Positions 11,187 to 55,490 of a stretch of DNA of 64,000 bases are shown here, piece after piece. The position numbers and the translations under genes are program-made. Origin of the DNA: a virus; the IMG/VR virus record IMGVR_UViG_3300048014_000057, positions 32,001 to 96,000 of that record; one strand, written 5' to 3'. Under the pieces are notes generated by a model. The model saw only the letters and a list, made by a program, of their open reading frames with translations. It ran no database searches and was not told the origin of the DNA. Numbering within the stretch: position 1 is the stretch's first letter; the number at the start of each line of letters is the position of its first letter.

Positions 11187-11246
11187 TGGACCAAGGGAAG
11201 GATTCGAACCTCCGACATAAAGCTCTACCAACTGAGCTACCTTGGT
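11187..11246 (-). ncRNA. tRNA-like RNA lacking the anticodon arm (60 nt)
   Basis: ACCAAGG TA GCTC AGTTGGTA GAGC TTTATGTC GGAGG TTCGAAT CCTTC CCTTGGT CCA. Confidence 0.75.
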
Positions 11247-11348: not shown

Positions 11349-11572
11349 TTGTCAACTATTTATTCAGGTTATATTTATATTTGGTATGATATTAAATCTA
11401 AATTTTTTTATATTGGTGGCCATAAAGGAAAAGTTTCTGATTATTATATATGTTCAAATAAACCAATGTTAAGAGCTTATAAATTAAGACCAGAAACTTA
11501 GAAATTCTATAATAGGAAGAAAATTACAAACTAGAGAAGATGGAAGTAAATATTGGAAATATCCTGATAAAA
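11349..11572 (+). pseudogene. GIY-YIG (seg-like) homing endonuclease remnant
   Basis: GYIYIWYD...FYIGGHKG...YICS then stop at 11499-11501; downstream fragment TREDGSKYW suggests an internal deletion. Confidence 0.65.
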
Positions 11573-11845
11573 GTGGGGAGATTCTGTTACTAGGCTCTCC
11601 CCCTATGCCCTAGTTAGAGATTATGCACAGAGTGCAAAACCTTCAACAAATGCAACTTCATTATCATTTGCATTTACAGTTTTATTCCGTTAACGGAGGT
11701 TTCCCCCGATAGACTACTCATTTCCTTCATCTAGCAATCGATCCTGTTCGAGCCCATCAACAAAACACCTTAATGTACTCTTGGTGGACTCGCGGACATA
11801 CGCTAGTCCGGTCTTGCCAAGATTATCTAAATGTATCAACATCTA
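11571..11845 (-). ncRNA. ssrA: two-piece (circularly permuted) tmRNA, alphaproteobacterial type
   Basis: Acceptor piece ends CGAGTCC A CCA (11782); 26-nt spacer; coding piece starts GGGCTCG AACAGGATCGA (11755), giving G3-U70; tag ORF 11671-11621 ANDNEVAFVEGFALCA*; outer ends approximate. Confidence 0.9.
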
Positions 11846-11898
11846 TCCTTTATTTATCTCATAAAATCTTTTACAAGTCAAGAAAAAAATAAAAAAAA

Positions 11899-29977: not shown

Positions 29978-30277
29978 TTACAATTCTGTTTCTACTGTTT
30001 CTTGATTAACATTTCTAATTTTAAATTCAAGAATTGTACTATCAATTCTAAATGACAAAATAAAAAAATTTAAATCAATATAATATTGATTATTATTAGT
30101 TTGGTCACAAAAAATAAAAATAGTACCATTATAGTCTAATTTACTAACAAATTTTTTAAAATGGTCTCTTACTTTTTTTCTTGTTTCTTCGTTATTATTT
30201 TCAAGAAAAACATCATCTGGAAAATACGATTTTACCTCACTTTTGATAAGATTAATTACATTATTTTTATTTAACAA
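29978..30277 (-). CDS. small protein resembling the tail sheath (gp18) C-terminal domain
   Basis: FLENNNEETR...FCDQTNN....ID.N.F compared with sheath FE.ND..TR...VCDETNNT..VIDRNEF. Confidence 0.5.
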   Translation of the reverse strand: MLNKNNVINLIKSEVKSYFPDDVFLENNNEETRKKVRDHFKKFVSKLDYNGTIFIFCDQTNNNQYYIDLNFFILSFRIDSTILEFKIRNVNQETVETEL

Positions 30278-33026
30278 TTTTACTAAATCCTTTCTCTTTT
30301 TTAAATTCGATTATATTTTCTATTCTATCCTTATTTTTTTCATTATGAGAAATAATAAACACATTTTCATCCTTTGTCAATCTTTTTAAAATATTAAGGT
30401 AAGAATCTATTCCATCTGCATCCATACTACCATCAAGAGTTTCATCAAAAATAAGTAAATTTGTATCGAGTGAATTTCTTCTTTTTGCCACTTCTCTGAA
30501 AGTAAAGAGAAGTGCCAAATTAATTCTCATTTTTTCTCCTTGACTAAAAGACTGAAAAATATGTTCATCACGATATCTAGATTTTATAACTTCATTAAAA
30601 TTTTCATCTACTGTAAATTGACAAATAAAATCCATTTCAAGAAGAAATTTATTTATTAATTCATTAATCACTTCAATATATTGTTTAATAATAGAAGCCT
30701 TGACTCCATCATCTCGAAGAAGTTTAAGTAATATATTCATATTTTCTTTTTGAATTACTAAATTATCATAATTTTTAATATAATTTTCAAGAGAATTTTG
30801 TAATTGTAAAATTTCTTCTGTTTTATCTTCCACATTTTCATTTTTAAAAGAATTAATTTTTATTTTTAATTCATTAGCAAGAGAAGTAATATTTTTTAAT
30901 TCATATAAAATTAAATCAATTTTAGAATTAACTTCTTTCATGGATTTAATAGAATCATTAAATTTATCAATTTCTAATTCTAATTTATCATATGTTCTTT
31001 GGTATATTTTTACCTGATCTAAATTATGAGTATGTTGTATCCTTTTTTCTTGTATAATAATATCCTTAAAAGTTTCATCAATATTTTGATTACATACATT
31101 ACAAACACACGTATTTTCATAATAATACATTTCTTTTTCTAGTTTTTTATTTTCAAGTTTTAAATTATTAATATCACTTCCAAGTTTATAATAAAGTGAT
31201 TCTTTAGTTTTTAATTCATCTTCTATTTTAGAAGTATCAAATTTTTCTGGTATATTCTTCTTTTTTAACAAATATGATTTTCTGTATTCCTCTAATTTTT
31301 CTTCCATTTCTAAAATTTGTTTTTGATTATCTTCTTTTCTTTTTTTATTATATTCTTCCAATAATTTGATTCTATTTTTTAAAGTATTTTGTTCGGTTCT
31401 TAATTCATAGATATTTTTTTCATTATCTTGAATTCTTTTTTTAAGTATTAAATTCATAGAAGAAAATATTTCAAGATCAAGTAAATTTTCTACTATTTTT
31501 CTTCTATCTGGTAAAGGAAGTTCTAAAAAAGGAACATACGAAGCCGAACCCAAAACACAAACTTGACAAAATGCCTTATGATTAATATGAAGAATATTTT
31601 CTTCTAAATATTTTTGATAATCATCTTGGTTTGTATTATTCAATAATACATTATTTTTATATATTTCAAATTTATTAGGTTTTATACCTCTAATAATCTT
31701 ATAAAAATCTTGTCCTATGGTAAATTCTATTTCCACCAGACAATTTTTCTTTGTCATTGAATTAACCAAAAGAGATAAAGTTACTTTTCTAAATGGTTTT
31801 TTAAACAAACAAAAACAAAGAGCATCAAGACAAGTCGAATTATGAGTTACAACATAATTATCAGTTACATATAACTGAGAAGGATGATCAATAGAAATAC
31901 ATTTAACAATTTCTTTTTCAATTTTTTCAATTTTTTCAATTCTTAAACGTAAAGAATCTTTATATTGATAATTTTTACATCTTTCTTTTTTTCTAGATAA
32001 TGAAAATAACTCAGATGGATTTTTATATCTAATATTTAATTGATATGATAATCTTCCTTTCTTTTTTATTCCTTTATTTGTAAAGGAAGGATTTTTTTCT
32101 GAAATTTTACAAATACCACCAATAGAAAATATTAATTCTTGTATATCTTTGGCTAATTCATAACTTGTTGTTGAATAAGAAATAGAACCGTTTCTATCAG
32201 CAGTTCCATCTGTATCCATTAAACCACGTAATAATTCTATTTTTTGATTAAAAGAAATATTTTTATATAATTCTGGAATATTTTTTTCCCAGGATCGTTT
32301 TCCATATAAATTTAATTTTTTTAATTCTTCTTTAAATATGTGTTTTTCATATTTAATACCATAATTAATTCTATAAGAACATCTTGTTTGAACTTTTGAT
32401 AAATGTAATTTTACAATCCTAGGACAAGTAAAATCAAGAATATTTCTTACTTTATTTAATAATTCTTCATCTGTATTTGTTATTGTTACATTACTACTAG
32501 TAAATGATCCATCACCAATTAAAACACCTAATAAATAAGGATTAATTGGTAAATCTACATCTTTTTTTATAAAATTTTCTGCTTCAAAAAGTTGAATAAA
32601 ATGATTATCAGTAAAATTACCTAATGAATTTTCTTTTTCTTTTAAAATTTCTAAAAGAGATAAAATTTTCCATTGCCATTTTGATTCAAAATATCCCCAT
32701 ACTCTAAAAAGATGGTTTTCCCCACATTTAACTTTTCTTCCATCTTTAAATGTAATTTCATATACATTTTCTTCTCCGATAAATGGAATATCAATTACTT
32801 TTGATATATCTCCATTAGCAGATACAATTTCATCTCCAATTTTTATATTACCAATAGTATTCCATCCTAAAGGTGTTAGGATTTTTGAATATAATGGTTG
32901 TGCTTTACCAGCACCATTTATACCAACAATAAGTGAAATAGAATTTTCGTTTAATTTTATTTCTGTCCATTGATTACCAGATGATAAAAAATTCTGGTAA
33001 CGAATAGTATTAAATATTATTTTCAT
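30267..33026 (-). CDS. gp46: recombination endonuclease subunit gp46 (Rad50-like), intein-containing
   Basis: NFLSSGN, G.NGAGK|S, CNVC zinc hook, SFSQGEK.RI.LAL, DETLD, ISH. Confidence 0.96.
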   Translation of the reverse strand: MKIIFNTIRYQNFLSSGNQWTEIKLNENSISLIVGINGAGKAQPLYSKILTPLGWNTIGNIKIGDEIVSANGDISKVIDIPFIGEENVYEITFKDGRKVKCGENHLFRVWGYFESKWQWKILSLLEILKEKENSLGNFTDNHFIQLFEAENFIKKDVDLPINPYLLGVLIGDGSFTSSNVTITNTDEELLNKVRNILDFTCPRIVKLHLSKVQTRCSYRINYGIKYEKHIFKEELKKLNLYGKRSWEKNIPELYKNISFNQKIELLRGLMDTDGTADRNGSISYSTTSYELAKDIQELIFSIGGICKISEKNPSFTNKGIKKKGRLSYQLNIRYKNPSELFSLSRKKERCKNYQYKDSLRLRIEKIEKIEKEIVKCISIDHPSQLYVTDNYVVTHNSTCLDALCFCLFKKPFRKVTLSLLVNSMTKKNCLVEIEFTIGQDFYKIIRGIKPNKFEIYKNNVLLNNTNQDDYQKYLEENILHINHKAFCQVCVLGSASYVPFLELPLPDRRKIVENLLDLEIFSSMNLILKKRIQDNEKNIYELRTEQNTLKNRIKLLEEYNKKRKEDNQKQILEMEEKLEEYRKSYLLKKKNIPEKFDTSKIEDELKTKESLYYKLGSDINNLKLENKKLEKEMYYYENTCVCNVCNQNIDETFKDIIIQEKRIQHTHNLDQVKIYQRTYDKLELEIDKFNDSIKSMKEVNSKIDLILYELKNITSLANELKIKINSFKNENVEDKTEEILQLQNSLENYIKNYDNLVIQKENMNILLKLLRDDGVKASIIKQYIEVINELINKFLLEMDFICQFTVDENFNEVIKSRYRDEHIFQSFSQGEKMRINLALLFTFREVAKRRNSLDTNLLIFDETLDGSMDADGIDSYLNILKRLTKDENVFIISHNEKNKDRIENIIEFKKEKGFSKIVK
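31839..32903 (-). mobile_element. intein (355 aa) with LAGLIDADG endonuclease, Ala1 start
   Basis: GK|AQPLYSKILTP...YLLGVLIGDG...LRGLMDTDG...VKCISID...VVTHN|S; inserted in Walker A. Confidence 0.93.
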
Positions 33027-39923: not shown

Positions 39924-40016
39924 GGGAAGGCTGCTAAGATGGCGGTTTAGCAGCCGTCTATAAAACGGTTCCATTTGTGGTAAACATTGTAGGTTCGAAT
40001 CCTACCTTTCCCACCA
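39924..40016 (+). tRNA. tRNA-Tyr with anticodon ATA, long variable arm
   Basis: GCCGT CT ATA AA ACGGT; variable arm CCA TTTG TGG; GTAGG TTCGAAT CCTAC; A CCA. Confidence 0.85.
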
Positions 40017-46852: not shown

Positions 46853-47206
46853 ATGAAAAAACGTATTTTGGTTTGTGGTGGAAGAGATTATAATCCTAAT
46901 AAAGTTTATAAATTCTTAGAGAATAAACTAGATCATCTTGCTATATCTGAAATTGTAATTATTCAAGGTGGTGCCTAAGGAGCAGATTTTGGTGCCAAGC
47001 AATTTGCCATTGATTATTCTATTGAAATGGAAGAATATAAAGCTAAATGGGATAAGTATGGTAAATCTGCTGGTCCTATAAGAAATAAAAAAATGTTGGA
47101 TGAAGGAAAACCTGATTTAGTTTTTGCATTTCCGGGCGGCCCTGGTACAAATAATATGATTAAACAAGCAAAAGAAAAAAACATTTTAATATACAATATT
47201 AAATAA
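46853..47206 (+). pseudogene. DUF2493/YspA (SLOG) protein with in-frame TAA at 46976
   Basis: RILVCGGRDY...IIQGGA*GAD...A.W..YGK.AGPIRN..ML...KPDLV.AFPGG.GT..M. Confidence 0.85.
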
Positions 47207-47212
47207 AAATTT

Positions 47213-47295
47213 GGCTTCGTAAACGAGGGGAGCTTCTAACTCCTTAGTCGTAACTGGATTTGAAAATGAAGGTTCGATTCCTTCCGAAGTCACCA
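47213..47295 (+). tRNA. atypical tRNA-Arg(TCT): no D-arm, extended variable region
   Basis: GGCTTCG TAAACGA GGGGAG CTTCTAA CTCCTT AGTC GTAACTG GATT TGAAAAT GAAGG TTCGATT CCTTC CGAAGTC A CCA. Confidence 0.75.
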
Positions 47296-55019: not shown

Positions 55020-55388
55020 ATGGATAAGTCTTTAAAAGAAAAGTGGATTAAAAAACTTACTTCTGGTAAATATCGTCAATGTCAAAATAGTTTAAAGAAA
55101 GAAACTCGTGATGGTGGAGTTAGTTTTTGTTGTTTAGGAATTTTAGCAGAATGTATTGATCCTGACTATTTTACAGAAGAAAAATTTAAATATCAAAATA
55201 ATAGAACTAAAGCATTTGTTCCAAATTCTAAATATTTCCCATCTTTTGTAAATATTGGTATGTTACCTGATTTTATTTTAAATAAAATTAGGTTAATCTC
55301 AGAACAACAAAATATATTAATAGAAATGAATGATAATAAGGGTAAAAAATTTAAAACAATTGCTAAATGGATTGAAGAAAATCTATAA
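55020..55388 (+). CDS. hypothetical phage protein
   Basis: W...L.SGKY.Q....L, FCCLG.L, ND...F..IA.WIE. Confidence 0.65.
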   Translation: MDKSLKEKWIKKLTSGKYRQCQNSLKKETRDGGVSFCCLGILAECIDPDYFTEEKFKYQNNRTKAFVPNSKYFPSFVNIGMLPDFILNKIRLISEQQNILIEMNDNKGKKFKTIAKWIEENL

Positions 55389-55398
55389 ATAAAATAAT

Positions 55399-55490
55399 GC
55401 GGGATTAGTGTAATGGTAGCACACGGTCCTTATAAGGCCGCATCGCCAGATTAGCGAGTAGTAAAAGTTCGAATCTTTTATCCCGTACCA
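55399..55490 (+). tRNA. tRNA-Ile(TAT) with long variable arm
   Basis: CGGTC CT TAT AA GGCCG; variable arm TCGC CAGATTA GCGA; TTCGAAT; A CCA; TATAAATA at 55384. Confidence 0.85.

What the first reader, a model, noticed from the sequence alone, without database searches (positions are those of the whole stretch)
47213..47295. D-arm-less tRNA-Arg(TCT) with a D-loop-like sequence in the variable-arm position
Seen: the acceptor stem, a 6-bp anticodon stem, the T-arm and CCA are all paired or intact, but only 7 nt (TAAACGA) stand where the D-arm should be. After the anticodon arm comes AGTC-GTAACTG-GATT, containing AACTGGAT, which resembles the tRNA-Arg D-loop (G18 G19 A20; A20 is the ArgRS determinant). 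Known: D-armless tRNAs are mainly mitochondrial. Inference: an arm-transposed architecture that rebuilds the elbow from the other side, decodes AGA, and may evade tRNA nucleases.
Basis: partly seen in the sequence, partly recalled or inferred. Interest (0 to 1): 0.78.

Follow-up and report, generated by a model that had tools for sequence, protein, structure and literature searches.

The report
Phage arginine tRNA with rewired D-arm
This 83-base gene in a T4-like phage is very probably a working arginine tRNA whose D-arm pieces are strung in a different order from the textbook cloverleaf; many phages share this design, gene finders miss it, and I found no paper describing it.

Summary
At 47213-47295 (+) there is a tRNA-like gene with a 7-bp acceptor stem, an anticodon arm (UCU), a T-arm and CCA. 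No D hairpin stands in the usual place, and a D-loop-like AACUGGAU follows the anticodon arm.

It is not truly D-armless. In 86 distinct relatives from viral contigs, the strand right after U8-A9 pairs with the strand just 5' of the D-loop-like motif. The two central pairs form in 83/86 and 85/86 sequences, with 13 and 47 double changes.

U8, A14, G18-G19, the A20 equivalent and an A15-U48 / G15-C48 covarying pair are kept. So the normal tRNA core appears to be rebuilt with two segments swapped.

All members carry arginine anticodons. They sit in phage tRNA arrays and are unannotated in cultured phages such as Caulobacter phage Ccr10. AGA makes up 71% of this phage's arginine codons, and the record holds no canonical tRNA-Arg.

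Charging, the 3D fold and any anti-defence role are inferred, not shown. The scan has found this family before on other DNA. My searches found no published description.

The parts
47213..47295 (+). Whole gene: rewired tRNA-Arg(UCU), 80 nt plus encoded CCA
   Evidence: RF00005 33.7 bits. Family model R1 70.8 bits. Sequence.
47213..47219 (+). Acceptor stem, 5' strand (pairs with 47285-47291)
   Evidence: 7/7 pairs here. 99.3% of cells paired, and all 7 pairs covary across 86 sequences.
47220..47222 (+). U8 A9 plus one extra A (the extra A is specific to this subtype)
   Evidence: U8 and A9 are invariant in 86/86 sequences. The extra nucleotide is present in 8/86.
47223..47226 (+). ACGA: 5' strand of the long-range D-stem equivalent (plays the role of positions 22-25)
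   Evidence: Four Watson-Crick pairs with 47248-47251. Family covariation. The helix is also in the MFE fold.
47227..47245 (+). Anticodon arm. G47227-U47245 closing wobble pair (26-44 equivalent); stem 47228-47232 with 47240-47244; loop 47233-47239; anticodon UCU at 47235-47237
   Evidence: 98.3% of cells paired and all pairs covary. C35 is invariant.
47246..47247 (+). AG: 2-nt bulge/connector between the anticodon arm and the returning D-stem strand
   Evidence: The connector is 2-6 nt in most of the family, longest 14 nt in one member (alignment A1).
47248..47251 (+). UCGU: 3' strand of the D-stem equivalent (role of positions 10-13)
   Evidence: Central pairs form in 83/86 and 85/86 sequences, with 13 and 47 double changes.
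47252..47259 (+). AACUGGAU: D-loop equivalent (A14 A15 C16 U17 G18 G19 A20 U20a)
   Evidence: Same letters as the D-loop of canonical phage tRNA-Arg(UCU), e.g. L057. Conservation figures.
47260..47267 (+). UUGAAAAU: linker ending in A-U (U = position 48 equivalent)
   Evidence: 'AU' precedes the T stem in 36/40 sequences. Columns for positions 15 and 48 read A-U 82, G-C 3, U-G 1.
47268..47284 (+). T-arm: GAAGG, UUCGAUU, CCUUC
   Evidence: 99.8% of cells paired.
47285..47295 (+). Acceptor stem 3' strand, discriminator A (47292), CCA (47293-47295)
   Evidence: CCA is encoded in 66/86 family members.

Best explanation
The gene encodes a functional elongator tRNA-Arg(UCU) of a T4-like myovirus. 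It belongs to a widespread family of phage tRNA-Arg genes in which two internal segments are swapped.

A canonical tRNA runs: 8-9, [10-13 + D-loop 14-21], [22-25, 26, anticodon arm 27-43, 44], variable loop, T-arm. This gene runs: U8-A9, [22-25-like strand, 26, anticodon arm, 44], a short connector, [10-13-like strand + D-loop-like A14 A15 C16 U17 G18 G19 A20], a linker ending in A-U48, T-arm.

The two D-stem strands therefore flank the anticodon arm and pair across it. This gives a continuous stack of about 10 layers: 5-bp anticodon stem, one 26-44-like pair and a 4-bp D-stem. That is the same length as in a normal tRNA.

The D-loop-like strand is then placed to make the usual core contacts: U8-A14, A15-U48, and G18 G19 with the T-loop. 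It would also present A20 to arginyl-tRNA synthetase.

Shown here: the secondary structure (by covariation), conservation of the core and identity nucleotides, restriction to arginine anticodons, position in tRNA arrays, and the phage's heavy use of AGA.

Inferred: transcription and processing, the L-shaped fold, charging by the host ArgRS, and decoding of AGA on the ribosome.
For: Family and structure
- Pattern scans of viral contigs found the same architecture in 84 loci. This gave 86 distinct sequences, aligned as A1.
- On A1, the acceptor, anticodon and T helices are paired in 98-100% of cells and covary strongly.
- The long-range helix has two near-invariantly paired positions. Pair 12-46 is paired in 83/86 (CG 70, UA 8, GC 4, AU 1). 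Pair 13-45 is paired in 85/86 (CG 38, GC 34, UA 12, AU 1). A third pair forms in 43/86, with 21 double changes.
- The covariation score is 0.523. Shuffled controls give 0.126 (0/500 reach the observed value) and slid controls give 0.01-0.14.

Core and identity nucleotides
- In 40 relatives picked only by anticodon loop plus T-loop: U-A precedes the motif in 40/40, GG followed by A in 39/40, A15 in 36/40, and 'AU' before the T stem in 36/40.
- The 15-48 equivalent covaries: A-U 82, G-C 3, U-G 1.
- The bacterial Arg identity set is A20, C35, U/G36, A/G73 (PMC9976931). Equivalents of all four are present here.

Restriction to arginine
- A scan for the bare architecture, with no constraint on D-loop motif or anticodon, over 3.2 Mb of held loci gave 76 hits. 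73 carry Arg anticodons; the other 3 are canonical tRNAs parsed wrongly.

Genomic setting
- Members lie on the same strand inside phage tRNA arrays. In the 35 loci checked, a canonical tRNA of the same anticodon occurs in the held stretch in only 2.
- This phage record has one family copy and no canonical tRNA-Arg among its 7 tRNA hits.
- AGA is 771 of 1090 Arg codons in this phage.

This sequence
- The proposed fold of the window's gene is -22.2 kcal/mol against an MFE of -23.6. The MFE contains the same long-range helix.
Against: - No expression, processing, modification or aminoacylation data exist for this gene or any relative that I could find.
- The long-range helix is short. Only 2 pairs are near-universal; the outer pairs are unpaired in 50-67% of members. 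RNAalifold's energy-based consensus does not predict it.
- Single-sequence folding is only weakly better than shuffles (z -1.74).
- The relatives were collected with patterns that fix the T-loop and either the D-loop motif or the anticodon loop. Conservation of those parts, and the restriction to Arg, are therefore partly built into the sample. The helix covariation and the 15-48 covariation are not.
- The L-shaped 3D equivalence is an argument from sequence, not a model or a structure.
- No promoter or terminator signal stands out near the gene.
Confidence: 0.8

Rival explanations
1. It is a tRNA-like decoy or regulator, not an adaptor in translation. The conserved RNA would mimic tRNA-Arg to soak up or mislead a host factor (a tRNA-Arg-directed nuclease, ArgRS, or a modification enzyme), or would act as a processing signal in the operon.
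For: The non-canonical topology and exclusive link to one amino acid would also fit a molecule tuned to one protein partner. The same phage carries other odd tRNA-like genes, including one with no anticodon arm. No data on charging exist.
Against: - Everything translation needs is conserved: a 7+5 bp acceptor/T stack, encoded CCA in 66/86, U33 and A37, and a 7-nt anticodon loop.
- Four to six different Arg anticodons occur.
- In tRNA arrays, members usually supply an Arg anticodon that the held stretch otherwise lacks. A decoy would not need that.
Confidence: 0.1
2. It is a truly D-armless tRNA. The 5' connector is unpaired and the region after the anticodon arm folds on itself into a variable-arm hairpin (AGUC-GUAACUG-GAUU) that substitutes for the D-arm.
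For: In this one sequence the hairpin can form. The fold with it scores -19.9 kcal/mol, better than no helix at all at -18.2.
Against: - Across 86 relatives these four pairs are paired in only 35.7% of cells: 80/86 and 54/86 unpaired at the two inner pairs, with almost no double changes.
- The competing long-range helix covaries and is more stable here, at -22.2 kcal/mol.
Confidence: 0.04
3. It is a decayed tRNA pseudogene, or a chance tRNA-like match in AT-rich DNA.
For: It is missed by ARAGORN and scores only 33.7 bits with RF00005. The neighbouring gene carries an in-frame stop, so some decay occurs locally.
Against: All four helices are fully paired in this copy. The gene scores 70.8 bits against the family model. 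86 distinct relatives show compensatory changes in every helix. At 45% G+C it stands out in a 27% G+C genome.
Confidence: 0.02

Closest known systems
Canonical bacterial and phage class I tRNA-Arg(UCU) (Rfam RF00005; E. coli argU type; e.g. the canonical phage gene in locus L057)
   Same: 7-bp acceptor stem, 5-bp anticodon stem with loop CUUCUAA, 5-bp T stem with UUCGANU loop. Same D-loop letters (AACUGGAU). Same Arg identity nucleotides (A20, C35, U36, A/G73). Same number of stacked layers between the anticodon loop and the elbow.
   Different: The order of segments along the chain differs. The 10-13 strand plus the D-loop lie after the anticodon arm instead of before it, so the D-stem closes around the anticodon arm and there is no D hairpin. 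The variable loop is replaced by a linker that starts from the D-loop.
D-armless mitochondrial tRNAs of animals (e.g. tRNA-Ser(AGY/UCU); review PMC7609411)
   Same: No hairpin between the acceptor stem and the anticodon arm. Standard gene finders have trouble with them.
   Different: Those tRNAs have lost the D-stem and the G18 G19 elbow contacts. They are flexible and need adapted partner proteins. Here the D-stem pairing, G18 G19, A14, and A15-U48 are all kept, and the setting is a bacterial virus that uses bacterial translation factors.
allo-tRNAs with 8/4 or 9/3 acceptor/T branches (PMC5389517)
   Same: Naturally occurring non-standard tRNA designs, found in bacteria and their phages by metagenome mining.
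   Different: allo-tRNAs redistribute base pairs between the acceptor and T stems and carry long variable arms, but keep the D-arm in its normal place. Here the 7/5 branch is normal and the D/anticodon domain is rewired.
Circularly permuted tRNA genes of the red alga Cyanidioschyzon merolae (from my own knowledge; not checked here)
   Same: The order of tRNA segments in the gene differs from the cloverleaf order.
   Different: There the 3' half precedes the 5' half, and processing through a circular intermediate restores a normal mature tRNA. Here the 5' and 3' acceptor strands are at the normal ends, so the mature RNA itself must keep the swapped order.

Membership tests
tRNA, canonical cloverleaf (Rfam RF00005) | Covariance-model score at or above the gathering score (29 bits) | tested here: met
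   33.7 bits, model positions 1-71
tRNA, canonical cloverleaf (Rfam RF00005) | 7-bp acceptor stem, anticodon arm with 7-nt loop (U33, purine 37), 5-bp T stem with UUCRANY loop | tested here: met
   Sequence. Family covariation: 98-100% of cells paired.
tRNA, canonical cloverleaf (Rfam RF00005) | D hairpin (10-13 / D-loop / 22-25) lying between position 9 and the anticodon arm | tested here: not met
   15 model positions replaced by 5 nt. ARAGORN makes no call.
   70.8 bits. Canonical tRNAs score 40 bits or less; another member, L226, scores 80.7.
   4/4 Watson-Crick pairs here (47223-47226 with 47248-47251). Family covariation.
   UAACUGGAU and ...AAAAU here. Family frequencies.
   UCU here. 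86/86 in A1 and 73/73 true hits of the motif-free scan.
D-armless tRNA (animal mitochondrial type) | No D-stem pairing, and loss of the G18 G19 / T-loop elbow elements | tested here: not met
   A D-stem equivalent covaries. GG-A is kept in 39/40.
Substrate of bacterial arginyl-tRNA synthetase | Identity nucleotides A20, C35, U/G36, A/G73 (PMC9976931) | tested here: met
   A47258 (A20 equivalent), C47236, U47237 and A47292 are present. This is a sequence-level test only.
Substrate of bacterial arginyl-tRNA synthetase | Actual arginylation | not testable with these tools
   Needs an in vitro or in vivo charging assay.
Circularly permuted tRNA gene | 3' half of the tRNA encoded upstream of the 5' half | tested here: not met
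   The acceptor 5' strand is at the start and the 3' strand plus CCA at the end of the gene.

The most novel reading that the evidence does not exclude
The rewiring is adaptive rather than neutral. Moving half of the D-arm behind the anticodon arm would give phages an arginine tRNA that bacterial ArgRS, EF-Tu and the ribosome still accept. The same change would hide it from host (or phage-encoded) tRNA-directed nucleases or other defence factors that read the canonical D-arm/core. That would explain why the design is common in phage tRNA arrays and was found in only 1 of 151 sampled bacterial genomes, and there inside a tRNA-plus-tmRNA array. As a by-product, it would be the first natural non-cloverleaf elongator tRNA shown to work in bacterial translation.
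Probability: 0.2. Interest if true: 0.9.

Novelty: new variant of a known kind. Interest (0 to 1): 0.8.

Why it matters
The cloverleaf is treated as universal for bacterial tRNAs. [quoted passage not shown]

A natural tRNA family that keeps the core contacts but changes the strand connectivity would matter in several ways:
- It would show that the L-shape can be reached by another topology.
- It would show which contacts ArgRS, EF-Tu, RNase P and the ribosome really need.
- It would give a ready scaffold for orthogonal tRNA engineering.
- It would reveal a systematic gap in phage annotation. Members are unannotated in cultured phage genomes and missed by ARAGORN.

It can be tested directly, because cultured phages with known hosts carry it.

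Tried and rejected
- Chance match or pseudogene: rejected by covariation and the family model.
- Searching for close relatives of this phage through its gp33-like and gp32 proteins in viral contigs gave one distant locus and none. Synteny of the gene could therefore not be examined.
- blastn of the 1-kb region against cultured phages matched only the neighbouring SLOG gene, in Campylobacter phages.
- RNAalifold did not recover the short long-range helix.
- Sigma-70-type promoter and terminator scans, and the T4 late-promoter word TATAAATA, gave nothing near the gene.
- I considered a link between the in-frame TAA of the upstream gene and this tRNA. I rejected it because anticodon UCU cannot read UAA; the stop is most simply a nonsense change or a sequence error.
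- Eight literature searches and two reviews gave no description of this topology. Subscription-only papers were not searchable.
- A model search of 150 further genomes from the phylum of the one bacterial carrier found no other member. This means 'not found in those searched', not 'absent'.

Full report
**Where the window lies.** The window is bases 32001-96000 of a 144,859-base viral record of 27% G+C, estimated 84% complete. The record encodes T4-type replication and transcription proteins: family B DNA polymerase, UvsW, gp32, a gp33-like late-transcription coactivator and an Rnl1-type RNA ligase. It also carries an alphaproteobacterial-type two-piece tmRNA. It is therefore a T4-like myovirus, possibly of an alphaproteobacterial host.

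The gene in question lies 6 nt after the stop of a small SLOG-family gene and 17 nt before the gp33-like gene. All three are on the + strand, and gp32 follows.

**The observation.**
- Acceptor stem of 7 bp.
- UAAACGA where the D-arm should be.
- A 5-bp anticodon stem plus a G-U pair, loop CUUCUAA, anticodon UCU.
- A 23-nt stretch containing AACUGGAU.
- A canonical T-arm, discriminator A, and an encoded CCA.

Rfam's tRNA model passes its threshold (33.7 against 29 bits), but only by deleting the D-arm and inserting 20 nt. ARAGORN does not report the gene.

**Relatives.** Three pattern scans of viral contigs were run. Two required the D-loop-like word plus a T-loop. The third required only the loop CTTCTAA, a 24-36 nt gap and a T-loop.

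After parsing, these gave 86 distinct sequences of the same architecture from 84 loci. They are aligned as A1. All 86 carry arginine anticodons: UCU 52, ACG 24, UCG 6, CCU 4.

**Secondary structure.** On A1 the acceptor, anticodon and T helices are paired in 99.3, 98.3 and 99.8% of cells, with abundant double changes.

The new element is a helix between the strand that follows U8-A9 and the strand immediately 5' of the D-loop-like motif.
- One central pair forms in 83/86 sequences (CG 70, UA 8, GC 4, AU 1).
- The other central pair forms in 85/86 (CG 38, GC 34, UA 12, AU 1).
- A third pair forms in 43/86, with 21 double changes.
- The outermost pair forms in 28/86.

For this helix alone the covariation score is 0.523. 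Column shuffles give 0.126 (0/500 reach the observed value). Sliding the partner by 1-3 columns, a control that keeps relatedness, gives 0.01-0.14.

In the window's copy the helix is four Watson-Crick pairs: ACGA 47223-47226 with UCGU 47248-47251. It is part of the minimum-free-energy fold.

One caveat: RNAalifold's energy-driven consensus does not propose the short long-range helix. Its support is covariation, not energy.

**Reading the helix as a D-stem.** Several observations fit.
- The 3' strand of the helix is followed directly by U-A-A-C-U-G-G-A-U. These are the same letters as positions 13-20a of canonical phage tRNA-Arg(UCU), for example L057 with GCUC-AACUGGAUA-GAGC.
- In 78/86 members the 5' side has exactly 10 nt between A9 and the anticodon loop. 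This equals positions 22-31 of a normal tRNA. The window's subtype (8/86) has one extra A.
- In the 40 sequences chosen without reference to the motif, U-A precedes it in 40/40, GG followed by A occurs in 39/40, position 15 is A in 36/40, and the linker ends in A-U in 36/40.
- The 15 and 48 equivalents covary: A-U 82, G-C 3, U-G 1. This is the expected behaviour of the Levitt pair.
- The nucleotides flanking the anticodon stem are mostly non-Watson-Crick pairs (C-A, C-U, G-U, G-A), as at 26-44.

The simplest reading is that segments [10-21] and [22-44] have changed places along the chain while the core contacts are kept. I reached this reading before consulting earlier notes (note). Earlier agents of this scan reached the same reading on other DNA.

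**Evidence that it works as tRNA-Arg.**
- The bacterial arginine identity set is A20, C35, U/G36 and A/G73, with A20 the main determinant (PMC9976931). The equivalents are all present here.
- A scan for the bare architecture, with no constraint on D-loop motif or anticodon, over 3.2 Mb of held loci gave 76 hits. Of these, 73 have Arg anticodons and 3 are mis-parsed canonical tRNAs.
- In 35 loci examined with ARAGORN, members lie in gaps of phage tRNA arrays on the same strand. ARAGORN misses them except for two calls with wrong boundaries. A canonical tRNA with the same anticodon occurs in the held stretch in only two loci.
- This phage record has a single family copy and no canonical tRNA-Arg among seven tRNA-model hits.
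- AGA makes up 771 of 1090 Arg codons in 122 long ORFs.

**Distribution.**
- Among 100 loci returned by the same pattern from one-genome-per-species bacterial contigs, only one (L226) is a member. It sits in an array of at least 12 tRNA genes plus a tmRNA.
- None was found in 150 further genomes of that bacterium's phylum.
- Cultured phages carry unannotated members: Caulobacter phages Ccr10, Ccr2 and Ccr29; Mesorhizobium phage Cp1R7A-A1; Xanthomonas phages XacN1 and Xoo-sp13; Microbacterium phage Zooman; and Stenotrophomonas phages CM1 and RAS14.
- The Ccr10 copy is of the window's subtype and has anticodon ACG. It lies between the annotated tRNA-Gln and tRNA-Arg(TCT) genes.

**What is not shown.** Transcription, processing, modification, the 3D fold, arginylation and decoding are all inferred. 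The reason for the rewiring is unknown. It could be neutral drift tolerated by ArgRS, or an advantage such as escape from tRNA-directed defence. I give the adaptive reading about 20%.

**Literature.** Eight full-text searches and two reviews gave no description of this topology. The 2020 review of non-canonical tRNAs never uses the word 'phage'.

Noticed in passing
window 46853-47206 (+): The gene just upstream is a SLOG-family gene (Pfam PF10686 YAcAr, E 2.1e-9; phrog_289, E 4.5e-27, matched across the break). It is interrupted by one in-frame TAA at 46976-46978, inside the GGAxGAD motif. The Campylobacter phage F207 homologue has Arg at that position. This could be a nonsense mutation, a sequence error or read-through. 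UCU cannot read UAA, so I see no link to the tRNA.
   Followed up: partly
window 55399-55490 (+): A 92-nt tRNA-Ile(UAU) carries an extra 19-nt hairpin in the variable region. The hairpin loop (CAGAUUA) contains GAU, the anticodon of ordinary tRNA-Ile. A TATAAATA word sits at 55384-55391 just upstream. Similar 90-95-nt tRNA-Ile(tat) calls recur in many of the phage tRNA arrays that hold the rewired tRNA-Arg.
   Followed up: partly
window 39924-40016 (+): A class II tRNA-Tyr-like gene has anticodon AUA (A at position 34), which is unusual for bacteria and phages. 94% of this phage's Tyr codons are UAU.
   Followed up: no
window 11189-11246 (-): A 58-nt tRNA-like gene has acceptor, D and T arms but no anticodon arm (RF00005 46.6 bits, with 17 model positions replaced by 3 nt). 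It lies next to tRNA-Gly(UCC) and about 330 nt from the tmRNA gene.
   Followed up: no
window 11572-11885 (-): The phage encodes an alphaproteobacterial-type two-piece (permuted) tmRNA: RF01849 88.6 bits, RF04321 76.3 bits. This hints at an alphaproteobacterial host.
   Followed up: no
loci L350, L267, L315, L306, L302, L368, L319, L370, L374, L328, L307, L313 (viral contigs): A second odd tRNA-Arg(UCU) design of 85-88 nt. A 5' strand such as CCCAC pairs with GUGGG placed after the anticodon arm, and this is followed by AAGGA/AUGGA. Compensatory variants are visible by eye (CCCGA/UCGGG, CCUCU/AGAGG, CCUAC/GUAGG). There is a 4-bp T stem and a further possible pairing that would cross the first one (listing).
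   Followed up: partly
loci L263, L277, L285, L305 (viral contigs): Canonical tRNA-Arg(UCU) genes with a normal D-arm but a long extra arm in the variable region (90-93 nt), which is unusual for class I tRNA-Arg.
   Followed up: no
window 30267-33026 (-): A 919-aa SMC_N/gp46-like protein carries LAGLIDADG domains inserted around residues 261-313, suggesting an intein or a homing-endonuclease insertion.
   Followed up: no
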